Part shown: in pieces, positions 28,288 to 43,461 of the stretch
Position numbering within the stretch: the stretch's first letter is position 1
How the letters are laid out: the number at the start of each line of letters is the position of its first letter
Position numbers and translations under genes: made by a program
The notes under the pieces: generated by a model
Told to the model about the DNA's origin: nothing
Seen by the model: only the letters and a program-made list of their open reading frames with translations
Database searches by the model: none
IMG/VR virus record: IMGVR_UViG_3300009182_000002
Coordinates: 1 to 64,000 of that record
Reading direction: 5' to 3' (one strand)
Length of the DNA stretch: 64,000 bases
DNA from: a virus

Positions 28288-28306
28288 AAGAATTCCTTTC
28301 GTAAGG

Positions 28307-28378
28307 CTGACCCGGGTGGACTCGAACCACCAACCGGGCGATTAACAGTCGCCTGCGCTGCCATTGCGCCACGGGTCA
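28307..28378 (-). tRNA. tRNA-Asn(GTT)
   Basis: TGACCCG..GGCGA-CTGTTAA-TCGCC..GGTGG-TTCGAGT-CCACC-CGGGTCA-G; CCA not encoded. Confidence 0.92.
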
Positions 28379-28422
28379 TAGTGCCACGTTTCCGCTCGCG
28401 CCGTGGCTTTTGGTAAGCGGCG

Positions 28423-28504
28423 TGCCCCGAGTGGGACTTGAACCCACACTCCCTAAGGAACCGAATTTTGAGTCCGGCGCGTCTGCCAATTCCGCCAAGG
28501 GGGC
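28423..28504 (-). tRNA. tRNA-Leu(CAA), long variable arm, imperfect acceptor stem
   Basis: GCCCCCT-TGGCGGAATTGGCAGACGC..CCGGA-CTCAAAA-TTCGG..GTGGG-TTCAAGT-CCCAC-TCGGGGC-A. Confidence 0.85.
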
Positions 28505-31351: not shown

Positions 31352-32168
31352 CGGTGATCTCCTTTTGCCCCTCTACCGCGTCGAACTGGGTGCTGAGATT
31401 GCGTCTGCGTGCGTAGGACCGGGAGAACCGACCAAGATTCCCCTCCGACTTCTGGTTCTCCTCGCTCGTGGTATCCCAGAACGACTTCCCGGCAGGCTCG
31501 GATCGACGGTCGTCGCGGTGGTGGATGTCTGCGTAGTCCTCAGCAGAGGCCTCTTTGGACGCCAGAGTGTCGGCATCCCACTGGGAACTGGTGCCAACCT
31601 GCTCCGCAGCCTCCGAAGGACCGGTTCCGGAGTCCCAGAGGCTCTGCCTCTTGTCGAGGACGGGGAGGTTCTCTGCGTGGTGCCCTAGGGCATGGATCAG
31701 TGCCCGGGAGCGCTCATTGCGGCTGGTGCCACTGCGGACAGTCACATGCAGCCGTGAGACCGGCAATTGCTCCTCAGAACCGTCCTTGAGCCGGTAACTG
31801 GCTGACTCCGTGTACTTTGCTGAAGGGTGAGGCTGTTCAGCCTCCATTCCCGGCTTGAACCAGCCGCTGACACCGGATTCGTTCACAGCGTCACTGGTGT
31901 TCCCTGCACGCACGATGTCGAGGTTTCGCAGGTCAGAGGCAGGGACAGTGGACCTAGCCACGTCCTCTTTCATCTGAGCGACCTCTTCAGGGTCACCGGA
32001 GAGCCTCTTGGTGCCCTCGATGGCCTCGCTAACCTCCCGCATCCGCTCAGGGTTGTATCCCCTCGGATACCTCTCGGAGTCCTGCATCCAGAAAGCAGGA
32101 CGTGCGAGCATCCCCTGATCCTCACCCGGGGCGAAGTAAGGCTCAGCAGCGTTCTTCTTCCGAGGCAA
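31338..32168 (-). CDS. zincin-like protein with degenerate HExxH
   Basis: ALIHALGHH..KEASAEDYA; TAGGAG RBS. Confidence 0.55.
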   Translation of the reverse strand: MPRKKNAAEPYFAPGEDQGMLARPAFWMQDSERYPRGYNPERMREVSEAIEGTKRLSGDPEEVAQMKEDVARSTVPASDLRNLDIVRAGNTSDAVNESGVSGWFKPGMEAEQPHPSAKYTESASYRLKDGSEEQLPVSRLHVTVRSGTSRNERSRALIHALGHHAENLPVLDKRQSLWDSGTGPSEAAEQVGTSSQWDADTLASKEASAEDYADIHHRDDRRSEPAGKSFWDTTSEENQKSEGNLGRFSRSYARRRNLSTQFDAVEGQKEITDGNS

Positions 32169-32949
32169 GACAGGGCTCCTAGATAACGGAAGCCCTCCGC
32201 CACTCCAGTATCCAAGGGGACTGACACCCTAGAAAGCGTCAAATGTACAAGTTTTCCTTTTCCCCCTTAGCAACGTTGTAAAAGGGGATGTGACAAGATT
32301 TAGGAACTTTAGTTTTGGGTTCCATAGCAACGGGAGGGCCCAGATGCTCCAAGCAACGCTTGCTAGGGCCTTAGCAATTATTTTAAAGATCGCTCGTCTC
32401 AACGAAGATTCTTGATCGAGAGCGAGTACAGCCCTCCCGCTCCCAAGTTCGGCACGCCATTTGGGCAACTGCCTGAGATTTCAAGGGCCACCTATGCCTG
32501 AGCACTGGCCCCGCGCTGGTGGCGCAAGCGCTTAAGGGTGGGCGGGTCGCTCTGGCTGGCAAGCCGTTAGCCACGCTAAGCAACGGAGCCCTGCCCGGAG
32601 GGCTTCGAGTCGCTCGAGCCCGCTCCGGGCCACTGCCTCGCGACGGGGTGGCGGCGTGGCGGTGCGGGCAGGCTTCGGGATGGTGGTCCGGTGCTGTGAG
32701 TAACCAGCAGCGCGCTGGTGGTGCTGGAGCGCTCACTGGCACCGGGCGAGGGGTCCGGCTTGCCAAGGTCTCAGAATGGCGCTGTGGGCTTGCTAGGGCC
32801 ATCCCAGCGTTGAGCCGGTCCGGTCTCAGCCCTTTCACAGCAGCGTGTTCCAGCGTTGGAAACTTCTTTGGTAACGGTTTGGTAACGAGGGCTGTTTACG
32901 GGAATGAACGCCTTGGCAACCGCGTTGTTGATCAAGCAACACGATCGAC

Positions 32950-33395
32950 ACGGCACCGCGCAGCGCAGGCCCCCGGCTCTCGGGGCGAGCCCCTCGCGAT
33001 GGCCACCACAGCGGGTGAGCGAGCGACCCTCGTACCTCCCAGCGCCACGACCACGGGCTGGGGAAGGGCGACGGTTAAGCAGCCGGACCCGTCCAAGGAG
33101 ACAACTCTGTCGTGCTTCGGTGCGGCAGACGGTCAACAGGGGCACGCCCCGGTCTCCAGATGAATCCGTTGACGTGTCCGGACCATCTGCCGGTCTACCC
33201 GTGAGTGACCGCGCCAAGAACAACCACGGGCCTACTGCATTGCCCATGAAGTGACCTGTGAAGCCCTTGTGGCTTCGCCGGGATTCCCGCCGTGTGCGGG
33301 GAGTGCCTGACACCCCAACGGAATGGCGGGGTGACCATGGGAGGCCAACAACTGTGGTGGGAGCGGGGTGGCCACGCCGCCCCGTTCCCCCACCA
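32950..33395 (+). ncRNA. candidate large structured ncRNA
   Basis: nested helices, a cUUCGg tetraloop, G-U pairs favouring the plus strand, no credible ORF. Confidence 0.55.
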
Positions 33396-33396
33396 A

Positions 33397-33469
33397 GAGC
33401 CGCTGATGAACTGGTCATCGACGGTCGGCAGGCCACCGACCTGACGGGGTTCGACTCCCCGGTGGCTCA
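33397..33469 (+). ncRNA. tRNA-like cloverleaf (non-canonical anticodon loop)
   Basis: acceptor GAGCCGC/GTGGCTC+A; D arm GATGA/TCATC; stem GGTCGG/CCGACC with loop CAGGCCA; T arm CGGGG-TTCGACT-CCCCG. Confidence 0.75.
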
Positions 33470-33504
33470 CGCTCCATACCCACAACCAACCACTAGGAGA
33501 GCCC

Positions 33505-33747
33505 ATGTCCATTCCCACAACCAACCACGACGACCTGACCACGATGCTGGACGGGTCAGTGCAGGTCACCCTCACCCGCGCGGCAGTCGTTGACCTGCTG
33601 AGCGCGCTGGGACGTTCACTCACTGAGAACACCGGCGAGGTTCACATCGTCCTTGACGTGTGCGAACACCGCGCGTGGTTCGACGTGCGCGGTACGTCTG
33701 GCCGCATCGGCGGGGCAGTCACGCACTGCTACTGCGTCATCAACTAG
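33505..33747 (+). CDS. early hypothetical protein
   Basis: 80 aa, CTAGGAG RBS. Confidence 0.7.
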   Translation: MSIPTTNHDDLTTMLDGSVQVTLTRAAVVDLLSALGRSLTENTGEVHIVLDVCEHRAWFDVRGTSGRIGGAVTHCYCVIN

Positions 33748-33806
33748 GCGAAACAGGGCCATCGCGGCCCTGTCCACGGGGTTGGCATCCCCGTGCTGAC
33801 GAGCCT
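33746..33806 (+). ncRNA. hammerhead ribozyme, type II
   Basis: AGGC-GAAA-CAGGGCC(atcgc)GGCCCTG-TC-CACGGGG(ttggcat)CCCCGTG-CTGACGA-GCCT: complete core and three stems. Confidence 0.92.
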
Positions 33807-33831
33807 GCCACCAACCTAGGAGAGTGAAGCC

Positions 33832-35280
33832 TTGACAACTGGACTGCCCACATTCGCCGCGCTGATTCGCAGCGCGCCGGGTCCTGACAACCGCTGGTGC
33901 GAGGTCCTCATCGTGAGGTCCTTCGACACCTTCTCACCGCTGCACGTTCCCGGCGTTGGACCAGCGCCGCTGTTCTACATCCGGAACACCGGGGGCGGTC
34001 GGGGACCGTCCAACGCATGGGTCGCCGTCACCGACGTTCCTGCTCAGGAGCGCGCTGCATGGTGCGGCAATGACCCTCTCGTCGTGCCGCTCACCACGCA
34101 CGACGTGACCGCAGTTGCTAGCGCTCGCAACTTGCCGCCCAAGTCGCTGCTCACGCGGCTCCAGTCGCGCATCGACCGCGTGCCGCTCAATCAAGCCGTT
34201 GGGCTAACCATTGGCAACGTCGTTGACGCTCTGGTGCAGGCCACCGACGTGTTCGCCACGGTCGTGCCTGCTGCTCCCAAGGTCGCCCCGGCTCAGGTCG
34301 TGGTGGCCGCGCCGGTCATTCCTCAGGTGTCGGCCATCCCGGCTCCCGTGCTGACAGTGCCGGTTGCCAGCACGGCACCGGTTGCCAGCGCTGGTCCCGT
34401 GGTCGTGCTTGACGACGACCAGCCCGACTCCGACGACGGCTCCGTCACGGTCGTCGTGCAGGACGGCGCGTGCCGCAAGGCCATCGTCCTGCCGCCGTCG
34501 TTCGCTGACTCGTACATCCACCGTGCGGTGTTCGGAGTCGATGACTTCACGGTGCTGGATGAGGCACGGGCCAAGGGCGACAGCGTCGGGCTGTACGGCC
34601 CCACGGGCTCTGCCAAGACCACCGTTGCCAAGGCTTACGCGGCAGCGCGCGGTCTCCCGTATGTGCAGGTCTCAGGCACCGCGACGATGGAAGAGTCGCG
34701 GATGTTCGGTCGCTGGATCGACCTTGGCCAGTGGCAGGACGGCGTCGTCAGCGAGGTGGTCCGCTACGGCGGTCTACTCATCCTTGACGAGATCAACATG
34801 CTCCCGCCGAACATCAGCGCGAGCCTGTTCCCGCTGCTTCGCGAGCGGGTCCTCACCCTGCACGACAAGGACGGCGAGACCATCACCGCCCACCCGTCGC
34901 TGATCGTCATCGCGACGTGGAACCCGAACTACTCCGGTACGCGCGAACTGAACGCCGCGCTCGCCAACCGGTTCGGGGTGCAGGTTGAGTGGGGCTACGA
35001 CGACCGTGTTGAGAAGGCGCTTGGCATCTGCAACAGCCTTCGCGCTGCTGCTGGTCGCCTTCGTGCCAGCGAGGTCAAGGGCGAGGTCAGCGCCCCCTGC
35101 CCGACCAACGCGCTGGTTGACTTCCAGCACTACGCCGGTCGGCTGGGGCTGGACTTCGCGGTTGGCAACTTCGTCGCCCGGTACCACGACGATGTTGAGC
35201 GCAAGGCCGTGCAGGCCGTGTTCGACACCTTCCGTTCCAGCATCGAAAACGAGTTGGGGCTGGCTCAGGCAACCGTCTGA
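33832..35280 (+). CDS. MoxR/CbbQ/CobS-like AAA+ ATPase
   Basis: GPTGSAKT, LLILDEIN, ATWNPNYSGTRELNAALANRF. Confidence 0.88.
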   Translation: MTTGLPTFAALIRSAPGPDNRWCEVLIVRSFDTFSPLHVPGVGPAPLFYIRNTGGGRGPSNAWVAVTDVPAQERAAWCGNDPLVVPLTTHDVTAVASARNLPPKSLLTRLQSRIDRVPLNQAVGLTIGNVVDALVQATDVFATVVPAAPKVAPAQVVVAAPVIPQVSAIPAPVLTVPVASTAPVASAGPVVVLDDDQPDSDDGSVTVVVQDGACRKAIVLPPSFADSYIHRAVFGVDDFTVLDEARAKGDSVGLYGPTGSAKTTVAKAYAAARGLPYVQVSGTATMEESRMFGRWIDLGQWQDGVVSEVVRYGGLLILDEINMLPPNISASLFPLLRERVLTLHDKDGETITAHPSLIVIATWNPNYSGTRELNAALANRFGVQVEWGYDDRVEKALGICNSLRAAAGRLRASEVKGEVSAPCPTNALVDFQHYAGRLGLDFAVGNFVARYHDDVERKAVQAVFDTFRSSIENELGLAQATV

Positions 35281-35344
35281 GCCAGCACCAGCACCACCTA
35301 GCAAGCCCTACCAACCACTACCAACCTCTAGGAGAGCGATCACC

Positions 35345-36271
35345 TTGGCAATCACTTCACCCCTCACCGCCGACCGCTTGCTTGGCCCCGGCGCTGAACG
35401 TGGCGAGCGGCTCGCACGCCTCGCCGCCATCTTCACCAAGTCCAACAGCATCCTGTCCGGTCAGTCGGTCAAGGTGCGTATTGAGACCAACGACTGGGCT
35501 TGCCCACCGGCCCCGGCATGGTCCGATGGCCAGAACATCTGGTTCAAGGGCAGCGACATTCGTGACGCTGACTTCGACTCCATCGTCAACCTGTACGGTC
35601 TCAACTACCACGAACTGGGCCACATCCTGTGGACACCCCGTCAGTCGCACCCGCTGGCGACTTGGGCTTGGCGCAACCGTCACTGGTCCACGATGAACCT
35701 CTTGGAAGACCAGCGCATCGAAACGGCGATGACCCGCCGCTGGCCTTCGACGGCACCGTGGCTCACCGCGTGCGTCCTGCGCTGGGTGCTGGCCGACCCC
35801 AAGACCCTCAGCACGTCCTACCTGCTGCTGCGTGGTCGTCGCTTCCTCCCGGCTGACGTGCGCGGACTGTCACGTCAGGCCTTCGAGCGTCAGGACCTGC
35901 TCCCTGAGGTTGACCGCATCGTTGACGCCTACCGGGAACTGCGCTTCCCAGAGAAGCCCAACCTGCGCCGCGTATCGGAGCGCAACCTGTACGACCGTGC
36001 TCAGGCGCTGATCACCGACTACAGCGCGCTGATTGCCAGCCTTAACAACCAGCCCACGTCGTCGCCTAACCACGGCAACGACGAGACATCACCGGTAACC
36101 AACGGCTACCCAGCGCCTCACGATCCCAATGAGGCCAACACCGACGACCAGTACGACGACGAGCCCCAGCCCGGTCAGGGTAGCGACGGGGACCAGAACG
36201 ACCAGCACGACGACACCAACGACAGCGGCGCGGGCACCCCGTGCTGCTCCTGCGACGGAGGCAGCCACTGA
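35345..36271 (+). CDS. CobT/vWA-partner N-terminal metallopeptidase-like protein
   Basis: AWSDG, NYHELGHIL, NLLEDQRIE; TTG start after CTAGGAG. Confidence 0.8.
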   Translation: MAITSPLTADRLLGPGAERGERLARLAAIFTKSNSILSGQSVKVRIETNDWACPPAPAWSDGQNIWFKGSDIRDADFDSIVNLYGLNYHELGHILWTPRQSHPLATWAWRNRHWSTMNLLEDQRIETAMTRRWPSTAPWLTACVLRWVLADPKTLSTSYLLLRGRRFLPADVRGLSRQAFERQDLLPEVDRIVDAYRELRFPEKPNLRRVSERNLYDRAQALITDYSALIASLNNQPTSSPNHGNDETSPVTNGYPAPHDPNEANTDDQYDDEPQPGQGSDGDQNDQHDDTNDSGAGTPCCSCDGGSH

Positions 36272-37464
36272 TGAACGACGACACCATGCCCAACACAAGC
36301 GCCTGCTCCTGCGGTTGCCACGGTCCTGCCGCTGGCAACGAGCCTGCCAACGACCAGCCGGGTGGCTCTGGCAACGAGCCGGGTCAGCCCCAGCCCGGCA
36401 ACGAGCCGGGTCGGCCCGGCAACGGCGACCAGCCCGGCGACCAGCCCGGCGAGGGCGAGGGTCAGGGCGAGGGCGACCAGCCCGGTGAGTCCGACGGCGG
36501 CGGCGCGAACGGCGGCGCTGGCTCCGACGGCGAGACCGGGCTGGACGGCGGCGAGGCCAACGGTGCTGGCACCGGGGTTACCAACGCCCCCGACATTGCC
36601 AAGGCCTTGCAAGACGCTGCTAGCAAGGCTCTCGACAACATCACCAACGACGTCGATATCGCTGGCGAGGCCAGCAGCGCTGTCAACGCTGTTGTCAAGG
36701 GCGGCGGTCACGTCCAGATCCTGCGCGACTCCCGCTTCGACACCTTCGCCCCCAGCGACGAGGCTCGCCTCGCTGAGCGCCGCGCGGTGCGGGAGTTCAA
36801 CACCCTCCGCGCAGACGCTGAGGAGGGCTGGGACCGCGCCCGTCCGCAGGGTCGGCTGAACGTCGGTCGCTACATCTCTAGCAACGGGGACCTTGACGTG
36901 GCCTTCGACCAGTGGCGTGACCGCAAGGGTGACGCCTCCGACCTTGAGGTTGTGCTACTGCTGGACGACTCAATGTCCATGGCTTCCTACCGCGTGGTCA
37001 GCGCGGAGGCCATGTGGGTACTCAAGCGTGGCCTTGACGCCATCGGTGCCAACACCACGGTGGTCATGTTCCACTCCGAGTCCCGCGTCCTGTACAAGCC
37101 GACCGACAAGGCTGAGGCGGGTCGCCTCCGCTGCTCAACTGAGAGCGGCGGCACTGACCCCAGCGAGGGCATCGCTCAGGCGGCGCGCATCTTCGCCGGG
37201 AGCCGCAAGGGTCAGAAGGTGCTGATCACCATCACCGATGGCGACTACTGGGGTGAGTCTGTCCCTGCCAACTGCGACTACAACATTGACGACATTGTCA
37301 AGGCCATGACCAACAGCGGCGTCGTCACTGCTCAGGTCCTGTTCAACCACGCGAGCGAGCAGACTCACGGGCACGCGATCAGCACTCAGGTCTCGCAGGT
37401 TGAGGAGATCGCGTCCTTTGCCAAGGAACTTGTCAAGGCTGCTATCAAGTCTCGCCAGCGCTAG
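36271..37464 (+). CDS. von Willebrand factor A domain protein
   Basis: GRLNVGR, LLLDDSMSM (MIDAS), GGTDP, ITITDGD; GGAGG RBS and TGATG coupling. Confidence 0.88.
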   Translation: MNDDTMPNTSACSCGCHGPAAGNEPANDQPGGSGNEPGQPQPGNEPGRPGNGDQPGDQPGEGEGQGEGDQPGESDGGGANGGAGSDGETGLDGGEANGAGTGVTNAPDIAKALQDAASKALDNITNDVDIAGEASSAVNAVVKGGGHVQILRDSRFDTFAPSDEARLAERRAVREFNTLRADAEEGWDRARPQGRLNVGRYISSNGDLDVAFDQWRDRKGDASDLEVVLLLDDSMSMASYRVVSAEAMWVLKRGLDAIGANTTVVMFHSESRVLYKPTDKAEAGRLRCSTESGGTDPSEGIAQAARIFAGSRKGQKVLITITDGDYWGESVPANCDYNIDDIVKAMTNSGVVTAQVLFNHASEQTHGHAISTQVSQVEEIASFAKELVKAAIKSRQR

Positions 37465-37473
37465 CAACGGGCT

Positions 37474-37506
37474 AACCCAGCAGGCCCCAAAGGGGCCTGC
37501 TGGGTT
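37474..37506 (+). terminator. 15 bp hairpin after the vWA gene
   Basis: aacccagcaggcccc-aaa-ggggcctgctgggtt. Confidence 0.7.
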
Positions 37507-37534
37507 GCTTCCCAACACAAGCAATTACCAACCC

Positions 37535-37578
37535 CAGCGCGACTAGCAGCCACCCCGGTGCAAGGCCGGGGCGCGCAC
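37535..37578 (+). repeat. 44 bp tRNA-minihelix-like element, copy 1
   Basis: identical to 38595-38638. Confidence 0.85.
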
Positions 37579-37610
37579 TGGTGCGACGAGCGCACCTAGC
37601 AACGAGAGGA

Positions 37611-37808
37611 ATGCCAATGCCCGAGATCAACGCCACCTACACCGTCGATGTTGACGGCACCCTTCACATCACACACCGCGAGTGCGGCGTCGTTCAAGAA
37701 GTCAAGCCGGTGCGCGAGTTCGCTGACGGCACCTGCTCGTTCGGTTCCGATGCCGACGTGTGCCTCGCCTGCGAGAACGAGGGTCGCCCGGCGACCCTCA
37801 ACTACTAG
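37611..37808 (+). CDS. small zinc-binding protein
   Basis: HREC..CLAC; GAGAGGA RBS. Confidence 0.55.
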   Translation: MPMPEINATYTVDVDGTLHITHRECGVVQEVKPVREFADGTCSFGSDADVCLACENEGRPATLNY

Positions 37809-37953
37809 GGGGCTGGCTCATGCTGCACAGCGCACGATCCCGAGCCCACCACGGCCATCGCGGTTGCTACTGCTGCGACTGGCCCGTAAGCAACCGCACA
37901 CTTCGCCAGCGCGAGAGGCGCGCTTGGCAACGACAGATTGAGAGGGAGTACGC

Positions 37954-38199
37954 ATGACCCACATCCCGGCGCAGGACGCCAACAACGCAACCGTCATCCG
38001 GTTGCTTGAGGAGATCGCCTCGCTTCAAGCAACCATCGACTCGCTCATCCCACGCGAGGACCCCGAGGTTCGGGCCGAGCGTTACCGCACCACGGCGAGC
38101 GACCGCTTCCAGTACAGCGACGGCGCTGACGCTGTCGGCTTCCATCTTGAGCGCATGTCCGCGCCCGACTACGACCCCTACTACGACGAGAGGTACTGA
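37954..38199 (+). CDS. hypothetical protein
   Basis: GGGAG RBS, ATGA overlap. Confidence 0.65.
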   Translation: MTHIPAQDANNATVIRLLEEIASLQATIDSLIPREDPEVRAERYRTTASDRFQYSDGADAVGFHLERMSAPDYDPYYDERY

Positions 38200-38201
38200 C
38201 C

Positions 38202-38513
38202 ATGACCACGATCACCATCACCATCCCGACCGACCTCGCAGACGCCATCGCAGATGCGCTGACCAAGTGCGTGCTGCGGGCCAGCGCTGACGCTGAACGG
38301 ACTGTCGCAGGGCCAGCGTACGAGCGAGCAGAAGAGGCAACCCGGTACTTCGGGGACGCGCTCGTCGCCTTCAACTACGCCCGCGACATTGACCCTCTAG
38401 CGCGAGAGTGCGGGGCATGCGGTGCGGAGTCAGGCGAGGACTGCCGGTGGCACTGCACCGCGCGGCCCGACGATGACAACGTGCCCAACACAAGCAATCT
38501 CATCGACGCTTAG
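38202..38513 (+). CDS. hypothetical protein with C-terminal zinc finger
   Basis: CGACGAESGEDCRWHC. Confidence 0.65.
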   Translation: MTTITITIPTDLADAIADALTKCVLRASADAERTVAGPAYERAEEATRYFGDALVAFNYARDIDPLARECGACGAESGEDCRWHCTARPDDDNVPNTSNLIDA

Positions 38514-38594
38514 GGCTTGGCTTACCCACTGCGGTTGTCCAAGAATGTTGTCGGAGGCAGGAATACCAAGATCAACTAAGGGTGTTGCCACACT

Positions 38595-38638
38595 CAGCGC
38601 GACTAGCAGCCACCCCGGTGCAAGGCCGGGGCGCGCAC
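38595..38638 (+). repeat. 44 bp tRNA-minihelix-like element, copy 2
   Basis: identical to 37535-37578. Confidence 0.85.
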
Positions 38639-38683
38639 GCTCACGACGAACCGTTCGTCGTATGTAGCCAAAGGAGGGCCAAC

Positions 38684-38968
38684 ATGGCCGAGTACATCTT
38701 CATTGAGGAAGAACCGCAGGTTAGTTCAGGACCACGCCTCAACCACCAGCAGGTCACGCTCGCGCGTCGTGTGCGTGACGCAGGCGGCTGGGTTGCCGTC
38801 ATTCGCTTCGACAAGAAGTCGGCGGCGAACGTCGCGGCCTCCCGCATCCGTCGCGGCAACGCGGCGTCGTGGGCGTACGTCGGCACCTTCGACACCAAGG
38901 TCGGCCAGCGCCCCGGCGAGTCCGAGTGGACCGTCTACGCGCTCTACACCGGAGAGGCAAGCAACTGA
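38684..38968 (+). CDS. hypothetical protein, paralogue of 40284-40616
   Basis: AAAGGAGG RBS; GWVAV..A.RI..G..A.W..VGTFD..V..VYA. Confidence 0.75.
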   Translation: MAEYIFIEEEPQVSSGPRLNHQQVTLARRVRDAGGWVAVIRFDKKSAANVAASRIRRGNAASWAYVGTFDTKVGQRPGESEWTVYALYTGEASN

Positions 38969-39489
38969 TGACTACCACCAACCAACCCACCGTTGACGAG
39001 CAGCGCGCACAGGTCTTGGCTGACAACCCCGGCCTTGACAAGGCGTTGACAACCAACCACCACATCGTTGAGGACATCTCCGCCCGCTTCGCTGCGACCG
39101 GTCGCCTTTCCGAGAAGCAGATCGCGCTCGTCTTCAAACTCGCCAAGCAAGACGCTGCCGCTAAGCAGCGTGAGGCTGAGCGCGAGGTAGCAGACATGCT
39201 GGTCCGCGAGTCTGGCATCACCATCACCCCCGGCAAGCAGGTCATCTTCGGAAGCGTCGTGTCTCTCAACCTGAAGGACAGCGGCTTCGGCCCGACGTGG
39301 AAGATGATCGTTGAGCACCCCAGCGGTCTGAAGTACTGGGGCACCGTCCCTAGCAACCTCGTCGGTGCTCTTGCCAAGGGTGATCAAGTTGAGTTCACCG
39401 CAACCGTGTCGGTCTCCGACAACGATCCAAAACCCATCTTCGGGTTCTACAAGCGCCCGACCAACGCCGCACTTATCAAGTCGGCCTGA
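38968..39489 (+). CDS. hypothetical protein, C-terminal OB-fold-like
   Basis: GRLSEKQIA, KYWGTVP, FGFYKRPT. Confidence 0.7.
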   Translation: MTTTNQPTVDEQRAQVLADNPGLDKALTTNHHIVEDISARFAATGRLSEKQIALVFKLAKQDAAAKQREAEREVADMLVRESGITITPGKQVIFGSVVSLNLKDSGFGPTWKMIVEHPSGLKYWGTVPSNLVGALAKGDQVEFTATVSVSDNDPKPIFGFYKRPTNAALIKSA

Positions 39490-39505
39490 CAAGGAGGAAC
39501 ACAGA

Positions 39506-39859
39506 ATGATTGACAAGAAGCAGGTAGTGATTCCAATTACCGTTGATGCCGCCGAGTTCTGGTCGGCCATCTTCGGAGCCGAGCCGTTCATCTGGCCATG
39601 GTGGGTCAAGGTGGACTACGCCGAGGGCTGCGACTGGGAGACCCCCGGCGAGGTCACCATCACCGTCGCTGACCCCGACGACGCTGAGGACAGCACGACC
39701 AAGACCCTCACGCTTGAGGATCTTGTCGCCGCGTACCTCATCGCGCTGGAGCAGTATCCGCGTTCTGTTGGCGTCGGCTGGGAGACCCCCGACTTCGACT
39801 CTGAGAGCAGCGACCTCATCCTCCAGATCGCAGTGCAGGGTGAGGTGGTGTTCGGATGA
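39506..39859 (+). CDS. acidic hypothetical protein
   Basis: AAGGAGG RBS; C-terminal D..D.ILQIAVQGEVVFG. Confidence 0.7.
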   Translation: MIDKKQVVIPITVDAAEFWSAIFGAEPFIWPWWVKVDYAEGCDWETPGEVTITVADPDDAEDSTTKTLTLEDLVAAYLIALEQYPRSVGVGWETPDFDSESSDLILQIAVQGEVVFG

Positions 39860-40283
39860 GCATCTGCCAATGGTTCGCCTTGTGCGACCGAGAGGCCACG
39901 CAGTCTGTCCCTCACCCCGTGCTGGGTGATGTCCCGACGTGCGACCGCTGCGCGTCGTTCGCCAATGGGGGTGCCTGACATGGAGCAGGTCATCAACATC
40001 GACTTCACAGACCTTGACGACGCTTACCACAAGATCGTCAAGTTGCTAGTAGACAACGGAATGGTTGACCGGGAGGCGCGCGTTTCGGCGCGCTTCCTGC
40101 TCGCCGGAGTGGAGGACAAGTGAGACTCACAACCCGAGGCTGGGTCTGCCTGTGGACGTTGGTATGCGTGCTTGCTATCGCTGTCAACGCTGCTTTCGCA
40201 GACAAGCAGGTCGAGTGCCGCGTCGAGAACCTCTCGACATGCCACATAACAACAACCGCTAACAACATCGGAGGCAACTAACA

Positions 40284-40616
40284 ATGACTGTCAAGCACAT
40301 CTTTGAAGTCGGCGACCCGACGTCCAACACAAGCGCATCAATCTTCGCTCTCAACCAAGAGACCATCCAAACAGCAGAGCGAGTGGCCGCAGCCGATGGC
40401 TGGGTGGCTGTGCTGGAGTACCCCGAGCCTGAGCGCAGTACGGCAGCAACCACAGCGCACCGGATCAAGCACGGCAAGAGCGCCGCGTGGAACAGCGTGG
40501 GCACCTTTGACGCCACAGTGCGGAAGACCAACTGGGGAACCGTGAAGGTCTACGCACGCTGCATCACTCGCTGGAGTGATCGTGATGACCCTTCAATCGC
40601 ACCATGGGATAGGTGA
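40284..40616 (+). CDS. hypothetical protein, paralogue of 38684-38968
   Basis: GGAGG RBS; shared motifs. Confidence 0.75.
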   Translation: MTVKHIFEVGDPTSNTSASIFALNQETIQTAERVAAADGWVAVLEYPEPERSTAATTAHRIKHGKSAAWNSVGTFDATVRKTNWGTVKVYARCITRWSDRDDPSIAPWDR

Positions 40617-40623
40617 TGTACCG

Positions 40624-41043
40624 ATGCAGACATTCCTGCCGTACGCAGACTTCGTTGACAGCGCCAAGGTGCTAGACAGACAACGCCTTGGCAAGCAACG
40701 AGTTGAGGCCTACCAGATTCTTCGCACGCTTCGGGGTGAGTCCAACGGCTGGTCTCATCACCCGGCAACCCGCATGTGGAAGGAACACACTCAAGCGCTC
40801 GCCGCGTATGGGTTCGTAGTGTGCAGCGAGTGGATAGCCCGTGGTTATAAAGACAACCTGCGTCTCTACTTCGCGCAGCGTCTGGCGCAGCCCAAGGCTC
40901 TTGTCATGCCTGAGTGGTTAGGTGATGAGGCTTTCCACCTGTCACACCAGAGCAACCTCGTTCGTAAAGACCCGCAGCACTACGGCGCGTTCTTCCCTGA
41001 CGTACCGTCTGACCTTCCCTATGTCTGGCCCATCTGGGCCTGA
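40624..41043 (+). CDS. pyrimidine-dimer DNA glycosylase / MSMEG_6728 family
   Basis: MQTFLPY.DF..SAKVLDRQRLGKQRVE..HPATRMW..SHQSNL.RKDP.HY..LPYVWP. Confidence 0.88.
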   Translation: MQTFLPYADFVDSAKVLDRQRLGKQRVEAYQILRTLRGESNGWSHHPATRMWKEHTQALAAYGFVVCSEWIARGYKDNLRLYFAQRLAQPKALVMPEWLGDEAFHLSHQSNLVRKDPQHYGAFFPDVPSDLPYVWPIWA

Positions 41044-41138
41044 CGCGCACCACCAGCCGTGAAGTAGGGGCAACAAGGCCCTGACGCCACACCGCTCGCA
41101 GGAGAGGGCACGGCAACGATCCCTTAGGAGGGGACAGC

Positions 41139-41579
41139 ATGGAGACAACCATCTACAACGGCCCTGCCCGATTCATTGGATACCGTGGTCGCGAGTGCAA
41201 GACCGACCGCATCCGCGAGGTCGTGATCCAACTGTCTGACGGCACGCTCCACACCGAGTACTTCTGTGAGCAGTGCGACTATCGCGCGGCTAAGTCCGCG
41301 TCGGTGCGCGGTCACTTGTCGCTGCACCCACTGCCGGGTAAGCCCCGCAGTGGCCGTCCTGTCGGGTCGCGCAAGCGCTCGCGCCACAGCGACGAGGTCA
41401 ACGAGGCGATTGAGCGCGAGATCGCTCGTCGTGTTGAGCGAGAGTTGCAGCGCGGTGCAAGCAAGCGCTCGCTGGAGCGAGAGGTTGCTAGGCAGAGGTT
41501 GGCGGAGGTTCGCCGCGAGAACCGCGAACTTCGCAAGCGCCTCAAGAACATCCGGGCAGCCATCGTTGGCAACGTTTAG
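41139..41579 (+). CDS. C2H2 zinc-finger/coiled-coil protein
   Basis: YFCEQCDY..GHLSLH followed by a coiled coil. Confidence 0.7.
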   Translation: METTIYNGPARFIGYRGRECKTDRIREVVIQLSDGTLHTEYFCEQCDYRAAKSASVRGHLSLHPLPGKPRSGRPVGSRKRSRHSDEVNEAIEREIARRVERELQRGASKRSLEREVARQRLAEVRRENRELRKRLKNIRAAIVGNV

Positions 41580-41861
41580 CAATTCCTAACAACAGGCGTG
41601 GCCCCGGCCTGACACCTACGGGGCACTTCCGAATGTCAGACCCATCTGCAACACTTCGTTCACACCTAACACCTTGGAGGGGAATCCGGTGGATCACACC
41701 ATCAACGTCGGAAAGACCAGCAAGTGGGAGACAACGCACGCCTACCGCATGCGTTGCTCATGCGGAGCAGCGTCCTACGTCCACACGCGCAAAGACGCTA
41801 ACAAAAGCGCGCGCGAACATCTCGCTCATGTTGAGAAGCGCGCTGCTGCCGAGGTGAAGCC

Positions 41862-42035
41862 ATGAAGGTTTGCCCAGAGTGCAGCGGGCGCGGCTATCAC
41901 TACATGCCGGGCCCAACTCCTGACGACATTGACGCCGAGGGTTGCCAAGACTGTCGTGGCACCGGCATCCAGTTTCTAACCACTAACCGTATTGCACCGC
42001 CCGTTGATTACGACCCCGATGAAAAGGAGGACTAG
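41862..42035 (+). CDS. DnaJ-type CxxCxGxG zinc-finger peptide
   Basis: MKVCPECSGRG..CQDCRGTG; below the ORF-track cutoff. Confidence 0.6.
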   Translation: MKVCPECSGRGYHYMPGPTPDDIDAEGCQDCRGTGIQFLTTNRIAPPVDYDPDEKED

Positions 42036-42039
42036 CACC

Positions 42040-42378
42040 ATGCACGATGAAGACACCGAGTTTGAACCGACTGCTTACGAGATTGTGCATTGCATGCACG
42101 AGGACAACGAGCCAGTTGTTCACCTGACGCTGTCTTACGCCGAGGTCAGTCTCATTGCCATGGCGTTGACAGAGTTCGTTCCCGGCGAGATTGAGCGCGC
42201 CCGCCTTCAATTCCTCAAGAGCGACGACCCATCGCTCAAGGCTTCGCTCTGCCGCATCGCGGGGTACGGAGAAGCCGCCCTCATTCAATGGCAGGAGATG
42301 GAGGAGGTCATGGCTGAGCCGATGGCCGAGTACATCGACTGGCATGAGTGGACGCATGAGATGGAGGCCGAGGCGTGA
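42040..42378 (+). CDS. acidic hypothetical protein
   Basis: AAGGAGG RBS. Confidence 0.65.
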   Translation: MHDEDTEFEPTAYEIVHCMHEDNEPVVHLTLSYAEVSLIAMALTEFVPGEIERARLQFLKSDDPSLKASLCRIAGYGEAALIQWQEMEEVMAEPMAEYIDWHEWTHEMEAEA

Positions 42379-42617
42379 ACGCCCCGTCCTTCGACGGCTC
42401 CCAGCCGTGCGCGCAGTCGGGTGGGGACTCATGGTTCCCCGATGACAACTCGTCTTTCACGACAGAGAACAGGATCGCCGCTGCTCTCTGCCAGACATGT
42501 CAGTTCAGAGTTCCTTGCTTGGAGTACGCCGTTGCTAACAACGTCGATGGCATCTGGGGAGGCACCACCCGCAATGACCGAAACGCTATTAAGCGGCAAA
42601 GGCGAGGTTCCGCATGA
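42375..42617 (+). CDS. whiB: WhiB-family transcription factor
   Basis: C..WFP..CQTC..CLEYA..GIWGGTT..R. Confidence 0.9.
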   Translation: MNAPSFDGSQPCAQSGGDSWFPDDNSSFTTENRIAAALCQTCQFRVPCLEYAVANNVDGIWGGTTRNDRNAIKRQRRGSA

Positions 42618-42913
42618 CCGCCGCCCGCGCAAGGTTGCAGGACTACCTGAAGCCCGGTCGTTCCGCGTGGAGCGATGACTACCACAACTCGCCTCACGCG
42701 AACACAGATGAAGGGTGTGTGGTGTGTGGCAAGCGCACGACTCCTGAGAAGCGGATTGTGGTCTGCCTGACAGGTGGTGGCGACGTGCTGGTGCGTCCAG
42801 AGGATGAGGAGCGTGAGGAGCGTGAGGACGCCGATGGTGGCTTCATGGGCCGCTGGTCGGTTGGGCCTGAATGTGGCCGAGCCATCCCGCAGGAATACAG
42901 GGTGTCAGCATGA
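42614..42913 (+). CDS. hypothetical zinc-binding protein
   Basis: CVVCGK..VGPECGR. Confidence 0.65.
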   Translation: MTAARARLQDYLKPGRSAWSDDYHNSPHANTDEGCVVCGKRTTPEKRIVVCLTGGGDVLVRPEDEEREEREDADGGFMGRWSVGPECGRAIPQEYRVSA

Positions 42914-43089
42914 CCGATCCCTATCCGCCACCGCCTCGCAAGAGAGGTGACCCGGTCACCCGTCTTGGTTGGTGCGTTGATAACCACCACGACGAATGCC
43001 CGGTGAAGGCGGGTAGGGATCAAGAGTGGGTGTGCGAGTGTCCTTGCCATCCCGTTGCCAAGAAGAAGAAGACCCGGAAGACCGGCTAG
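42910..43089 (+). CDS. small Cys/His-rich protein
   Basis: GWC..HHDECP..CECPCH. Confidence 0.6.
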   Translation: MTDPYPPPPRKRGDPVTRLGWCVDNHHDECPVKAGRDQEWVCECPCHPVAKKKKTRKTG

Positions 43090-43105
43090 ACTTCGTAGCC
43101 ACACT

Positions 43106-43200
43106 GTGAAAGAGCGACTGGGGCACGCCAGTATCACGACAACAGAGCAGTACCTCCACCGGATGCGGATGGAGGATGACAACATCAGCAGTGTCATCGG
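43106..43200 (+). pseudogene. tyrosine recombinase C-terminal remnant
   Basis: VKERLGHASITTTEQYLH, with the rest of the catalytic domain missing. Confidence 0.75.
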
Positions 43201-43227
43201 GACCTGCTGTCAGACAAGGAGTAACGA

Positions 43228-43461
43228 ATGGCCACCAAGCCCGTCTGCCCACGCTGTGGGCACTTCATTCCCAACGACGAACAGCCGGGGGCCTACCCCG
43301 GCGCTCTGAGCCGAGCGGACAACGAGACTGAGGTCTGCTCCGACTGCGGCACCCATGAGGCGCTGGAGCAGTTCTTCAACGCCAACGGGGATCACCGCCC
43401 CACTCCTGTCAGCCAGTGGCCTGTCACGGAGTACCGTCCCCTGTTTACTGCTCTTCACTAG
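43228..43461 (+). CDS. zinc-finger hypothetical protein
   Basis: CPRCG..GALSR.DN.TEVCSDCG..EA. Confidence 0.75.
   Translation: MATKPVCPRCGHFIPNDEQPGAYPGALSRADNETEVCSDCGTHEALEQFFNANGDHRPTPVSQWPVTEYRPLFTALH

What the first reader, a model, noticed from the sequence alone, without database searches (positions are those of the whole stretch)
32950..38661. Proposed RNA-programmed segmentation system for the early transcript
Within 5.7 kb on one strand lie a large structured RNA, a tRNA mimic, a hammerhead, a strong hairpin and two identical minihelix elements, each at a gene boundary ahead of an RBS. Inference: the phage cuts one early transcript into separately stabilised RNAs using self-cleavage plus host tRNA-processing nucleases, releasing the large RNA and the MoxR/vWA message. 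This is the best candidate for an undescribed system in the window.
Basis: inference. Interest (0 to 1): 0.85.

Follow-up and report, generated by a model that had tools for sequence, protein, structure and literature searches.

The report
tRNA-like and ribozyme operon punctuation
One operon of this 98-kb phage of Actinobacteria carries a working-looking hammerhead ribozyme, a cloverleaf tRNA mimic and two copies of a 42-nt "mini-tRNA" that proves to be a widespread, apparently undescribed RNA motif sitting between genes of such phages, so RNA cutting at gene boundaries is likely but no RNA ends have been seen.

Summary
Four of the five elements are real. The type II hammerhead (33746-33813) and the tRNA-like cloverleaf (33397-33469) recur, with compensatory changes, at the same places in the only close relative (L017/L157). 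The 15-bp hairpin (37474-37506) and the two identical elements (37537-37578, 38597-38638) are as described.

The "large RNA" (32950-33396) is only a candidate. It is non-coding and folds better on the + strand (z -3.3 against -1.3), and its last 45 nt are nearly invariant. No covariation test was possible.

The main new result is that the "minihelix" belongs to a family of at least 40 distinct sequences. It occurs in IMG/VR contigs and in cultured phages (Predator, Musetta, xhp1). All 11 helix pairs covary, and two bulge-loop contacts resemble a tRNA elbow. Copies lie on the coding strand between co-directional genes, up to 7 per genome, usually followed by a hairpin and a ribosome-binding site. 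No Rfam family matches.

In two distant relatives this motif sits directly upstream of MoxR, where this phage has the hammerhead. Others have a promoter-like sequence there.

So "processing punctuation" is plausible (about 0.5) but unproven. The elements are not a conserved suite, and the general idea has precedents.

The parts
32169..33504 (.). 1336-nt gap without genes between the leftward block (ends 32168) and the rightward island. It has an AT-rich part (32200-32450, 46% GC) and two GC-rich blocks (32450-32800 and 32950-33470).
   Evidence: No sigma-70 consensus promoter was found.
32950..33396 (+). Candidate large structured leader RNA. It ends in an 18-bp hairpin (about 33353-33393) that is conserved in L157.
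   Evidence: z -3.3 on + and -1.3 on -. The 5' 300 nt alone give z -0.65. 44 of 45 nt are identical to L157. No Rfam match at E<=5.
33397..33469 (+). tRNA-like cloverleaf. It has a 7-bp acceptor stem, a 5-bp D stem, a 6-bp 'anticodon' stem with loop CAGGCCA (no U33, C at position 37), a T arm with loop UUCGACU, discriminator A, and no encoded CCA.
   Evidence: All 31 pairs hold in both sequences. 8 pairs changed on both sides, all in the acceptor and D stems; the anticodon and T arms are invariant.
33505..33747 (+). 80-aa ORF of no known family. Its TAG stop codon overlaps hammerhead stem II.
   Evidence: A diverged counterpart is present in L017.
33746..33813 (+). Type II hammerhead ribozyme. 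Stem II is AGGC/GCCU, stem III is 8 bp and stem I is 7 bp, with a pseudoknot UGGC(33789-33792)/GCCA. Predicted cleavage is after C33774.
   Evidence: L017 carries a homologue at 41.9 bits. 23 of 23 pairs are kept and 4 changed on both sides.
33832..35280 (+). MoxR-type AAA+ ATPase (AAA_5), TTG start, SD AGGAGAG.
35345..37464 (+). HExxH peptidase-like gene (35345-36271) and vWA gene (36271-37464). They form a single fused gene in relatives.
37474..37506 (+). Perfect 15-bp GC-rich hairpin with loop AAA and no U tract. It is probably a 3' stabiliser or a U-tract-less terminator.
   Evidence: (I12). It does not meet the terminator scan's T-run rule.
37537..37578 (+). Mini tRNA-like motif, copy 1. 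Layout: 5-bp outer stem, 11-nt 5' bulge ACUAGCAGCCA, 6-bp stem, 7-nt T-loop-like loop UGCAAGG, then AC.
   Evidence: R3 score 61.1 bits.
37580..37596 (+). 6-bp hairpin directly after copy 1, followed by SD GAGAGGAA and ATG 37617 (63-aa ORF).
38597..38638 (+). Mini tRNA-like motif, copy 2, identical to copy 1.
   Evidence: R3 score 62.9 bits.
38643..38661 (+). 8-bp hairpin directly after copy 2, followed by SD AAAGGAGGG and ATG 38684 (94-aa ORF).

Best explanation
The rightward operon is transcribed through a long leader and carries three kinds of cis-acting RNA that most likely create new RNA ends at gene boundaries. (a) The hammerhead cuts itself after C33774. This would leave the ORF80 RNA ending in stem III with a cyclic phosphate, and the MoxR-peptidase-vWA RNA starting with a 5'-OH and the stem I hairpin. 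The ribozyme's structure and conservation are shown; cleavage in vivo is inferred. (b) The cloverleaf mimic is recognised as a pre-tRNA by the host's RNase P at its 5' side and by a 3' tRNA-maturation nuclease. This would detach the leader RNA from the ORF80 message (inferred). (c) The two 42-nt mini-tRNA motifs present an acceptor/T-arm stack with a tRNA-elbow-like bulge-loop contact. They would be cut by the same tRNA-processing enzymes. The downstream message would then begin at a protective hairpin, and the upstream one would end in a structured 3' end. The fold, its conservation and its genomic context are shown; cleavage is inferred. The 15-bp hairpin after the vWA gene would act as a 3' stabiliser or terminator. 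These are separate modules that phages mix and exchange, not one co-inherited system.
For: HAMMERHEAD. It scores above Rfam's gathering score in this phage and in L017, at the same site, with 4 compensatory pairs and an intact pseudoknot. CLOVERLEAF MIMIC. 31 of 31 pairs are kept with 8 double changes, while the ORF between the two elements has diverged far more. MINI-tRNA FAMILY. A pattern that did not specify the outer 5' strand found 66 hits, and 60 of them form all 11 pairs. In 36 distinct sequences 432 of 432 cells pair, with 74 double changes against 15.7 in shuffles. Bulge nt 9 pairs with loop nt 7 as A-U 28, G-C 10 and C-G 2. Bulge nt 4 tracks loop nt 2 as A with G 27 and G with U 13. 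G-U pairs occur on the sense strand only, which points to RNA rather than DNA. CONTEXT. 47 of 53 copies have a same-strand ORF ending within 150 nt upstream, 26 of them at 6-16 nt. 38 of 53 have an SD and start codon 31-55 nt downstream. 42 of 53 have a hairpin starting within 6 nt after the motif, against 10.2 expected. The downstream genes fall into 27 unrelated clusters. Copies are clustered on one strand, 5 in Predator, each in an annotated intergenic gap, and 7 in G005. SLOT EXCHANGE. Hammerhead, minihelix or a promoter-like sequence sits upstream of MoxR in different relatives. CCA. The phage's own true tRNAs also lack encoded CCA, and tRNA-Leu has the trailer A|CGC like the mimic. ESTABLISHED KNOWLEDGE (not tested here). 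Bacterial RNase P cleaves acceptor/T-arm minihelices and non-tRNA substrates such as the P1/P7 C4 RNA precursor. 5' hairpins and 5'-OH ends slow RNase E/J attack.
Against: The mini-tRNA has only 5+6 bp instead of 7+5. Most members have G where tRNAs have U55. No CCA is encoded. No enzyme was tested. The fixed 31-55 nt distance to the start codon could equally indicate a role in translation. The cloverleaf's invariant anticodon arm suggests a sequence-specific partner that processing alone does not explain. The elements do not co-occur outside this lineage. No promoter was located, so one continuous transcript is assumed rather than shown. The alignment used for the pair counts left out 4 of the 40 distinct sequences because they had one or more mispairs, and the GG/CC pairs closing the inner stem were fixed by the search pattern.
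Confidence: 0.5

Rival explanations
1. The mini-tRNA motif, and perhaps the cloverleaf, is not a cleavage signal. It would be a tRNA-elbow mimic that binds a host or phage factor in cis. Candidate partners are the ribosome (L1 stalk or E site) to boost initiation of the gene 31-55 nt downstream, or SmpB, EF-Tu, a T-arm modification enzyme, or a tRNA-targeting defence nuclease as a decoy.
For: The motif keeps a tight distance to the start codon in 38 of 53 cases. The bulge and loop sequences are highly conserved beyond what a helix needs. The cloverleaf's anticodon arm is invariant while its other stems drift. The downstream genes are diverse, so it acts as a general expression element.
Against: The same slot upstream of MoxR is filled by a hammerhead, whose only known activity is cleavage, or by a promoter-like sequence. 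That argues for 'make a new 5' end'. A hairpin right after the motif fits a protected new 5' end better than ribosome loading.
Confidence: 0.25
2. The elements are unrelated neighbours with no joint programme. The hammerhead would be a mobile or selfish insertion with little consequence. The hairpin would be a plain terminator. New promoters just downstream would restart transcription, so the operon is not one transcript. The 1.3-kb gap would be a divergent promoter or origin region, not an RNA.
For: The elements do not co-occur in other phages. Relatives have a 0.66-1.16 kb gap at the same divergent junction with no sequence similarity to this one. The 5' 300 nt of the 'large RNA' fold no better than shuffles. 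Type II hammerheads of the same design are very common in viral contigs.
Against: The hammerhead and the mimic are kept with compensatory changes at identical positions in a relative whose MoxR is only 62% identical. No sigma-70-like promoter is found anywhere in 31.8-44 kb. The 34 nt between the mimic and the ORF80 start leave no room for a promoter, so the mimic must be co-transcribed with ORF80. The 45 nt before the mimic are nearly invariant.
Confidence: 0.2
3. The 44-nt repeats act at the DNA level, as a binding site for a phage regulator or as an unusual promoter.
For: The two copies in this genome are identical. The bulge holds the palindromic CTAG, which is CCGG in L009.
Against: The stems covary while their sequence drifts. 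G-U wobble pairs occur on the sense strand only (6 cells). Bulge-loop covariation has no meaning in duplex DNA. All copies lie on the coding strand. No -35/-10 spacing fits.
Confidence: 0.05

Closest known systems
Type II hammerhead ribozymes of phages and prophages (Rfam RF02276; Perreault et al. 2011, PMC3088659)
   Same: It has the same core, the same open stem II and the same loop I / 3'-tail pseudoknot. Its position just upstream of a start codon in an early phage operon is also shared. That paper already proposed that such ribozymes cut long phage transcripts into gene-length mRNAs, and it noted a halovirus HF1/HF2 hammerhead 13 nt before a helicase gene with a mapped 5' end nearby.
   Different: Nothing differs in the ribozyme itself. 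The new points are that its slot is filled by a tRNA-like motif or a promoter-like sequence in relatives, and that it is paired with a cloverleaf mimic 276 nt upstream.
tRNA punctuation of polycistronic transcripts (animal mitochondria) and the MALAT1-mascRNA / MEN-beta arrangement
   Same: A tRNA or tRNA-like fold between functional RNAs is used as a cutting signal for RNase P and RNase Z. In MALAT1, a large RNA is released by cleavage at a tRNA-like element at its 3' end. Here the candidate leader RNA is followed directly by the cloverleaf mimic.
   Different: Those systems are eukaryotic or organellar. Here the setting is a phage of Actinobacteria. Most of the punctuating elements are 42-nt armless mini-tRNAs. 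Cleavage has not been shown.
Non-tRNA and minimal substrates of bacterial RNase P (acceptor/T-arm minihelices; P1/P7 C4 antisense RNA precursor; polycistronic mRNA cleavage in E. coli)
   Same: They share a coaxial acceptor-like plus T-arm-like stack with a T-loop. The phage transcript would be the substrate.
   Different: The stack is 11 bp rather than 12. A conserved 11-nt bulge makes an elbow-like contact with the loop. There is no 3' CCA. It is a family with many copies per genome. This comparison rests on my own knowledge and was not tested.
RNase III processing of the phage T7 early transcript
   Same: One early polycistronic RNA is cut at intergenic hairpins into separately stable mRNAs that keep protective stem-loops at their ends.
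   Different: The signals in T7 are irregular double-stranded hairpins for RNase III, not ribozymes or tRNA mimics.
tRNA-like domain of tmRNA
   Same: Both have an acceptor stem and a T arm, with a single-stranded D-loop analogue that contacts the T-loop, and no anticodon arm.
   Different: No mRNA-like part is present, there is no CCA, and the motif is 42 nt long. Rfam's tmRNA models do not match.

Membership tests
Hammerhead ribozyme, type II (RF02276) | Score at or above the curated gathering score | tested here: met
   42.1 bits against 37 in the window, and 41.9 bits in L017.
Hammerhead ribozyme, type II (RF02276) | Conserved core CUGANGA ... GAAA ... NUH, with three helices and stem II open | tested here: met
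   CUGACGA 33796-33802, GAAA 33750-33753, GUC 33772-33774. All 23 pairs form in both sequences.
Hammerhead ribozyme, type II (RF02276) | Loop I / 3'-tail pseudoknot typical of type II | tested here: met
   4 pairs, UGGC with GCCA, are invariant in both sequences. This feature is described in PMC3088659.
Hammerhead ribozyme, type II (RF02276) | Self-cleavage activity | not testable with these tools
   Needs in vitro transcription of 33700-33850 or RNA-end mapping.
Transfer RNA (RF00005) | Score at or above the gathering score (29 bits) | tested here: not met
   No tRNA hit at 33397-33469 even at E<=5. Only tRNA-Sec at 20.1 bits, E 2.8. The phage's true tRNAs score 64 and 45 bits.
Transfer RNA (RF00005) | Canonical anticodon loop (U33, purine 37) and standard arm sizes | tested here: not met
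   The loop is CAGGCCA, with A at position 33 and C at 37. The anticodon stem is 6 bp, the D stem 5 bp and the variable region 2-3 nt.
Transfer RNA (RF00005) | Acceptor stem of 7 bp stacked on a 5-bp T stem with a T-loop UUCRANU, and GG in the D loop | tested here: met
   These are the features recognised by tRNA-processing enzymes, hence 'tRNA-like'.
Mini tRNA-like intergenic motif of actinophages (defined here; models R1 and R3) | 5-bp outer stem, 11-nt 5' bulge ACNRGCAGRCN, 6-bp stem, loop UKCRAGY, then AC | tested here: met
   Both window copies score 61-63 bits with R3. The family shows 100% pairing and 74 double changes.
Mini tRNA-like intergenic motif of actinophages (defined here; models R1 and R3) | Bulge nt 9 pairs with loop nt 7; bulge nt 4 co-varies with loop nt 2 | tested here: met
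   The window has C with G, and A with G. The family gives 40 of 40 and 40 of 40.
Mini tRNA-like intergenic motif of actinophages (defined here; models R1 and R3) | Sense-strand intergenic position, followed by a hairpin, an SD and a start codon | tested here: met
Any family of Rfam 15 (for the minihelix, the mimic and the large RNA) | A match at a permissive E-value | tested here: not met
   Nothing at E<=5 across 32000-39200 apart from the hammerhead and chance-level hits. Nothing at gathering score in 18 minihelix loci.
Intrinsic (Rho-independent) terminator | GC-rich hairpin followed by a U tract | tested here: not met
   The hairpin 37474-37506 is followed by GCUUCCCAAC. The scan does not list it. 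U-tract-less terminators are reported in Actinobacteria (own knowledge), so the function remains open.

The most novel reading that the evidence does not exclude
Phages of Actinobacteria use a dedicated 42-nt armless mini-tRNA as a portable punctuation mark. It has an acceptor/T-arm stack and a D-loop mimic that forms a tRNA elbow. The host's tRNA-maturation enzymes would cut at it, turning polycistronic transcripts into individually stabilised mRNAs. That would be a bacterial-virus counterpart of mitochondrial tRNA punctuation. The element would be interchangeable in evolution with self-cleaving ribozymes and with promoters. In this phage the same logic would also release a roughly 450-nt structured leader RNA through a full cloverleaf mimic.
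Probability: 0.4. Interest if true: 0.85.

Novelty: new variant of a known kind. Interest (0 to 1): 0.72.

Why it matters
How phages set the stability and ratios of the many small early mRNAs made from long transcripts is known in detail for only a few model phages, such as T7 (RNase III) and T4.

This work yields a compact RNA motif backed by covariation. It is present in cultured, easily handled phages: Mycobacterium phage Predator on M. smegmatis, Microbacterium phage Musetta and Actinomyces phage xhp1. It is not in Rfam, and I found no paper that describes it. It has tRNA-elbow-like tertiary contacts.

A natural swap gives a sharp, directly testable hypothesis about its function, because a hammerhead, the minihelix or a promoter-like sequence occupies the same slot in different relatives.

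If the hypothesis is confirmed, three things follow. There would be a new class of natural substrates for RNase P or RNase Z. The roughly 90-115-nt intergenic spacers in many actinophage genomes would be explained. And a small insulator part would be available for operon design in Actinobacteria.

Tried and rejected
- DNA similarity searches of 32.4-39 kb against the phage collection found nothing, in both near and distant modes.
- A single-protein search of viral contigs found no relative.
The 3 contigs holding the identical MoxR, and the contigs of P0002-P0005, could therefore not be fetched that way.

NEGATIVE RESULTS FOR THE ELEMENTS.
- The exact 19-mer of the mimic's anticodon arm is not in viral contigs. 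In genome contigs the 21-mer hit only L157 as a true mimic; the other 8 hits are chance matches in chromosomes.
- Model R2 (mimic plus preceding hairpin) finds nothing in G001-G003 or in 20 other loci.
- RF02276 is absent from G001-G003.
- Bendigovirus and Cantare relatives have no hammerhead and no tRNA-like element.
- The 518-nt gap before MoxR in L008 is not significantly structured, z -1.05. There is therefore no conserved 'large RNA' in that relative.
- Only 4 of 60 hammerhead-bearing viral loci hold any tRNA, and none lies next to the ribozyme. There is no general hammerhead-tRNA link.

READINGS CONSIDERED AND DROPPED.
- The minihelix as an attP or tRNA 3' fragment: the 5' strand covaries with the 3' strand.
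- The minihelix as a sigma-70 promoter: no spacing fits.
- The minihelix as twister-sister, pistol or hatchet: no Rfam match.
- CTAGCA as a specific signal of this region: the heptamer is enriched genome-wide.

OTHER.
- One script was killed by the time or memory limit.
- Literature searches for the motif's sequence and for tRNA-like intergenic elements of actinophages found nothing relevant.

Full report
SETTING. The window is the first 64 kb of a complete 97,729-bp virus record with direct terminal repeats and 58.5% GC. A codon-usage gene call puts nearly all genes on the minus strand. The exception is one plus-strand island, 33505-43461. It is preceded by a 1336-nt stretch (32169-33504) with no credible gene and no Pfam or PHROG match for its chance ORFs. 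The island begins with an 80-aa ORF, a MoxR-type AAA+ ATPase (AAA_5, E 6e-22), an HExxH peptidase-like protein and a vWA protein. The nearest cultured relatives are Brevibacterium phage Cantare and the Gordonia Bendigovirus phages, with about 40% identity in MoxR. They share the layout: leftward replication genes, a 0.66-1.16 kb gap, then a rightward block with the ATPase and a fused peptidase-vWA gene.

THE OBSERVATION. Rfam finds a type II hammerhead at 33746-33813, at 42.1 bits against a gathering score of 37. ARAGORN calls 33397-33470 a tRNA-Ala(ggc), but Rfam's tRNA model does not. The 15-bp perfect hairpin and the exact 44-nt repeat are as described. Every element is intergenic, on the coding strand, and ahead of a Shine-Dalgarno sequence and a start codon. 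The rest of the genome holds no other hammerhead or tRNA-like element. There are two true tRNAs at 28.3-28.5 kb on the other strand.

THE CLOSE RELATIVE. A profile of MoxR homologues pulled out a 2.6-kb metagenome contig, L017. A pattern scan found its twin L157, from a MAG labelled Actinomycetota. Its MoxR is 62% identical.
- It has the same order: hairpin, cloverleaf mimic, small ORF, hammerhead, MoxR.
- The hammerhead keeps 23 of 23 pairs, with 4 changed on both sides. The pseudoknot is invariant.
- The mimic keeps 31 of 31 pairs, with 8 changed on both sides, all in the acceptor and D stems. The 'anticodon' arm and the T arm are identical.
- The ORF between the two RNA elements is much less conserved than they are.
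- The 45 nt before the mimic differ at one loop base.
Both RNA elements are therefore under selection for structure. The mimic is not a decoding tRNA: it has A33 and C37, a 6-bp anticodon stem, a 5-bp D stem and a 2-3 nt variable region. It does keep the acceptor/T-arm stack, the T-loop and the GG of the D loop. Neither the mimic nor the phage's true tRNAs encode CCA, and tRNA-Leu has the same A|CGC trailer.

THE LARGE RNA. For 32995-33396 the fold z-score is -3.28 on the + strand and -1.32 on the - strand. The signal lies mostly in 33251-33500; 32950-33250 alone gives z -0.65. No Rfam family matches. No relative carries a comparable sequence, and the relative contigs are cut just inside its 3' hairpin. 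It remains a candidate.

THE MINIHELIX IS A FAMILY. While inspecting the spacer in front of MoxR in more distant relatives, I found the same element in L008 (G001) and L009 (G002), directly upstream of MoxR. That is exactly where this phage has the hammerhead. Both stems covary. Each of those 104-kb genomes has one copy.

A relaxed pattern that fixed only part of the bulge, the loop and the last four bases found 55 viral loci. In 60 of 66 hits all 6 inner and 5 outer pairs form, although the outer 5' strand was not in the pattern. By chance that would be expected in under 1% of hits.

In 36 distinct sequences 432 of 432 cells pair, with 74 double changes against 15.7 in shuffles. Two caveats apply: 4 distinct sequences with a mispair were left out, and the two closing GG/CC pairs were fixed by the pattern.

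Two further correlations hold in all 40 distinct sequences.
- Bulge nt 9 with loop nt 7: A-U 28, G-C 10, C-G 2.
- Bulge nt 4 with loop nt 2: A with G 27, G with U 13.
The loop is UKCRAGY, the T-loop consensus apart from K at position 2. The invariant bulge G5 faces the invariant loop C3. The pattern copies the G18-psi55 / G19-C56 elbow of tRNA. The motif is thus a 42-nt armless mini-tRNA: a 5-bp acceptor-like stem, a D-loop mimic and a 6-bp T arm. This reading is an inference from covariation. No 3D model was made.

CONTEXT OF THE FAMILY.
- 47 of 53 copies have a same-strand ORF ending within 150 nt upstream. 26 of these end 6-16 nt upstream and 19 end 66-93 nt upstream.
- 38 copies have an SD and a start codon 31-55 nt downstream.
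- 42 of 53 have a hairpin starting within 6 nt of the motif's end, against 10.2 expected.
- The downstream genes fall into 27 unrelated clusters, three of them MoxR.
- The motif occurs in cultured phages of Actinobacteria: Actinomyces xhp1, Microbacterium Musetta and Welcome, Mycobacterium Predator, and weaker matches in Bifidobacterium phages.
- Copies are clustered on one strand. Predator has 5, each within an annotated intergenic gap between co-directional genes. G005 has 7 in 4.8 kb and G004 has 3.
- 3 of 151 sampled Actinomycetes genomes hold one copy, next to integrase, primase or PHROG genes.
- No Rfam family matches, and I found no paper on the motif.

WHAT IT MEANS FOR THE PROPOSAL. 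The slot just upstream of the MoxR ribosome-binding site is filled in three ways.
- A hammerhead, in this phage and in L017.
- The minihelix plus a hairpin, in G001, G002 and L177.
- A TTGACN-17/18-TAnnGT promoter-like sequence, in Cantare, L019 and L021 (read directly).
A diverged minihelix also lies between the MoxR and vWA genes in L010. A ribozyme and a promoter share one outcome, a new 5' end for the downstream message. The hammerhead product would start with the stem I hairpin, just as the RNA downstream of a minihelix would start with a hairpin.

Against a unified 'system': the cloverleaf mimic is confined to this lineage. 100 hammerhead loci (0.92 Mb) hold no minihelix. 18 minihelix loci hold no hammerhead. 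Type II hammerheads of the same design are abundant in viral contigs, often 2-3 per contig. Their role in cutting long phage transcripts was already proposed in PMC3088659. No RNA data could be obtained.

VERDICT. It describes a set of exchangeable modules rather than one system. The valuable outcome is the mini-tRNA motif family, which looks new and can be tested in cultured phages.

Noticed in passing
window 36291, 37513, 38486, 40325 (+ strand): The 10-mer CAACACAAGC occurs four times. All copies are on the + strand and inside the + island, in both coding and non-coding places. There are none elsewhere in the 97.7-kb genome.
   Followed up: partly
whole genome, e.g. window 35298, 36878, 37461, 37596: The heptamer CTAGCAA has 58 copies over both strands, about five times expectation, even though CTAG is usually avoided. 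Its function is unknown.
   Followed up: partly
window 33471-33504, 33814-33831, 35281-35344: Three leaders share an unstructured C/A-rich tract (ACCAACC...) ending in CTAGGAGAG before the start codon. This may be a translation enhancer.
   Followed up: no
window 35345-36271 and 36271-37464: The HExxH peptidase-like part and the vWA part form one 580-690-aa gene in relatives (Cantare gp56, GMA6 orf62, L007, L008). Here they are two ORFs overlapping at TGATG. The vWA ORF also has a long Gly/Asp/Pro/Gln-rich low-complexity N-terminus.
   Followed up: partly
L010 8965-9011: A diverged mini-tRNA lies between the MoxR and vWA genes of another relative. Its loop is UUCGAUU and its bulge AAUGGUUGUA. 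R3 gives 16.9 bits, E 0.23. The family may be broader than model R3 captures.
   Followed up: no
L215 1417-1500 (Actinomyces phage xhp1), and L168, L171, L183, L188, L195: A conserved, structured stretch of about 85 nt lies between the stop codon and the minihelix in the xhp1-like group. It could be a larger composite RNA.
   Followed up: no
window 28305-28378 and 28422-28504 (minus strand): The phage's two true tRNAs, Asn(GUU) and Leu(CAA), lack encoded CCA. They sit at the end of the leftward block.
   Followed up: partly
window 32866-32890 and 32450-32800: A direct repeat TTGGTAACG x2 lies just before the candidate large RNA. A separate 350-nt block of 70-75% GC lies within the gap. Neither is explained.
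   Followed up: no
L020 9912-9948 (minus strand): A relative's contig carries an abiF RNA (RF03085) at 43.9 bits, above the gathering score.
   Followed up: no
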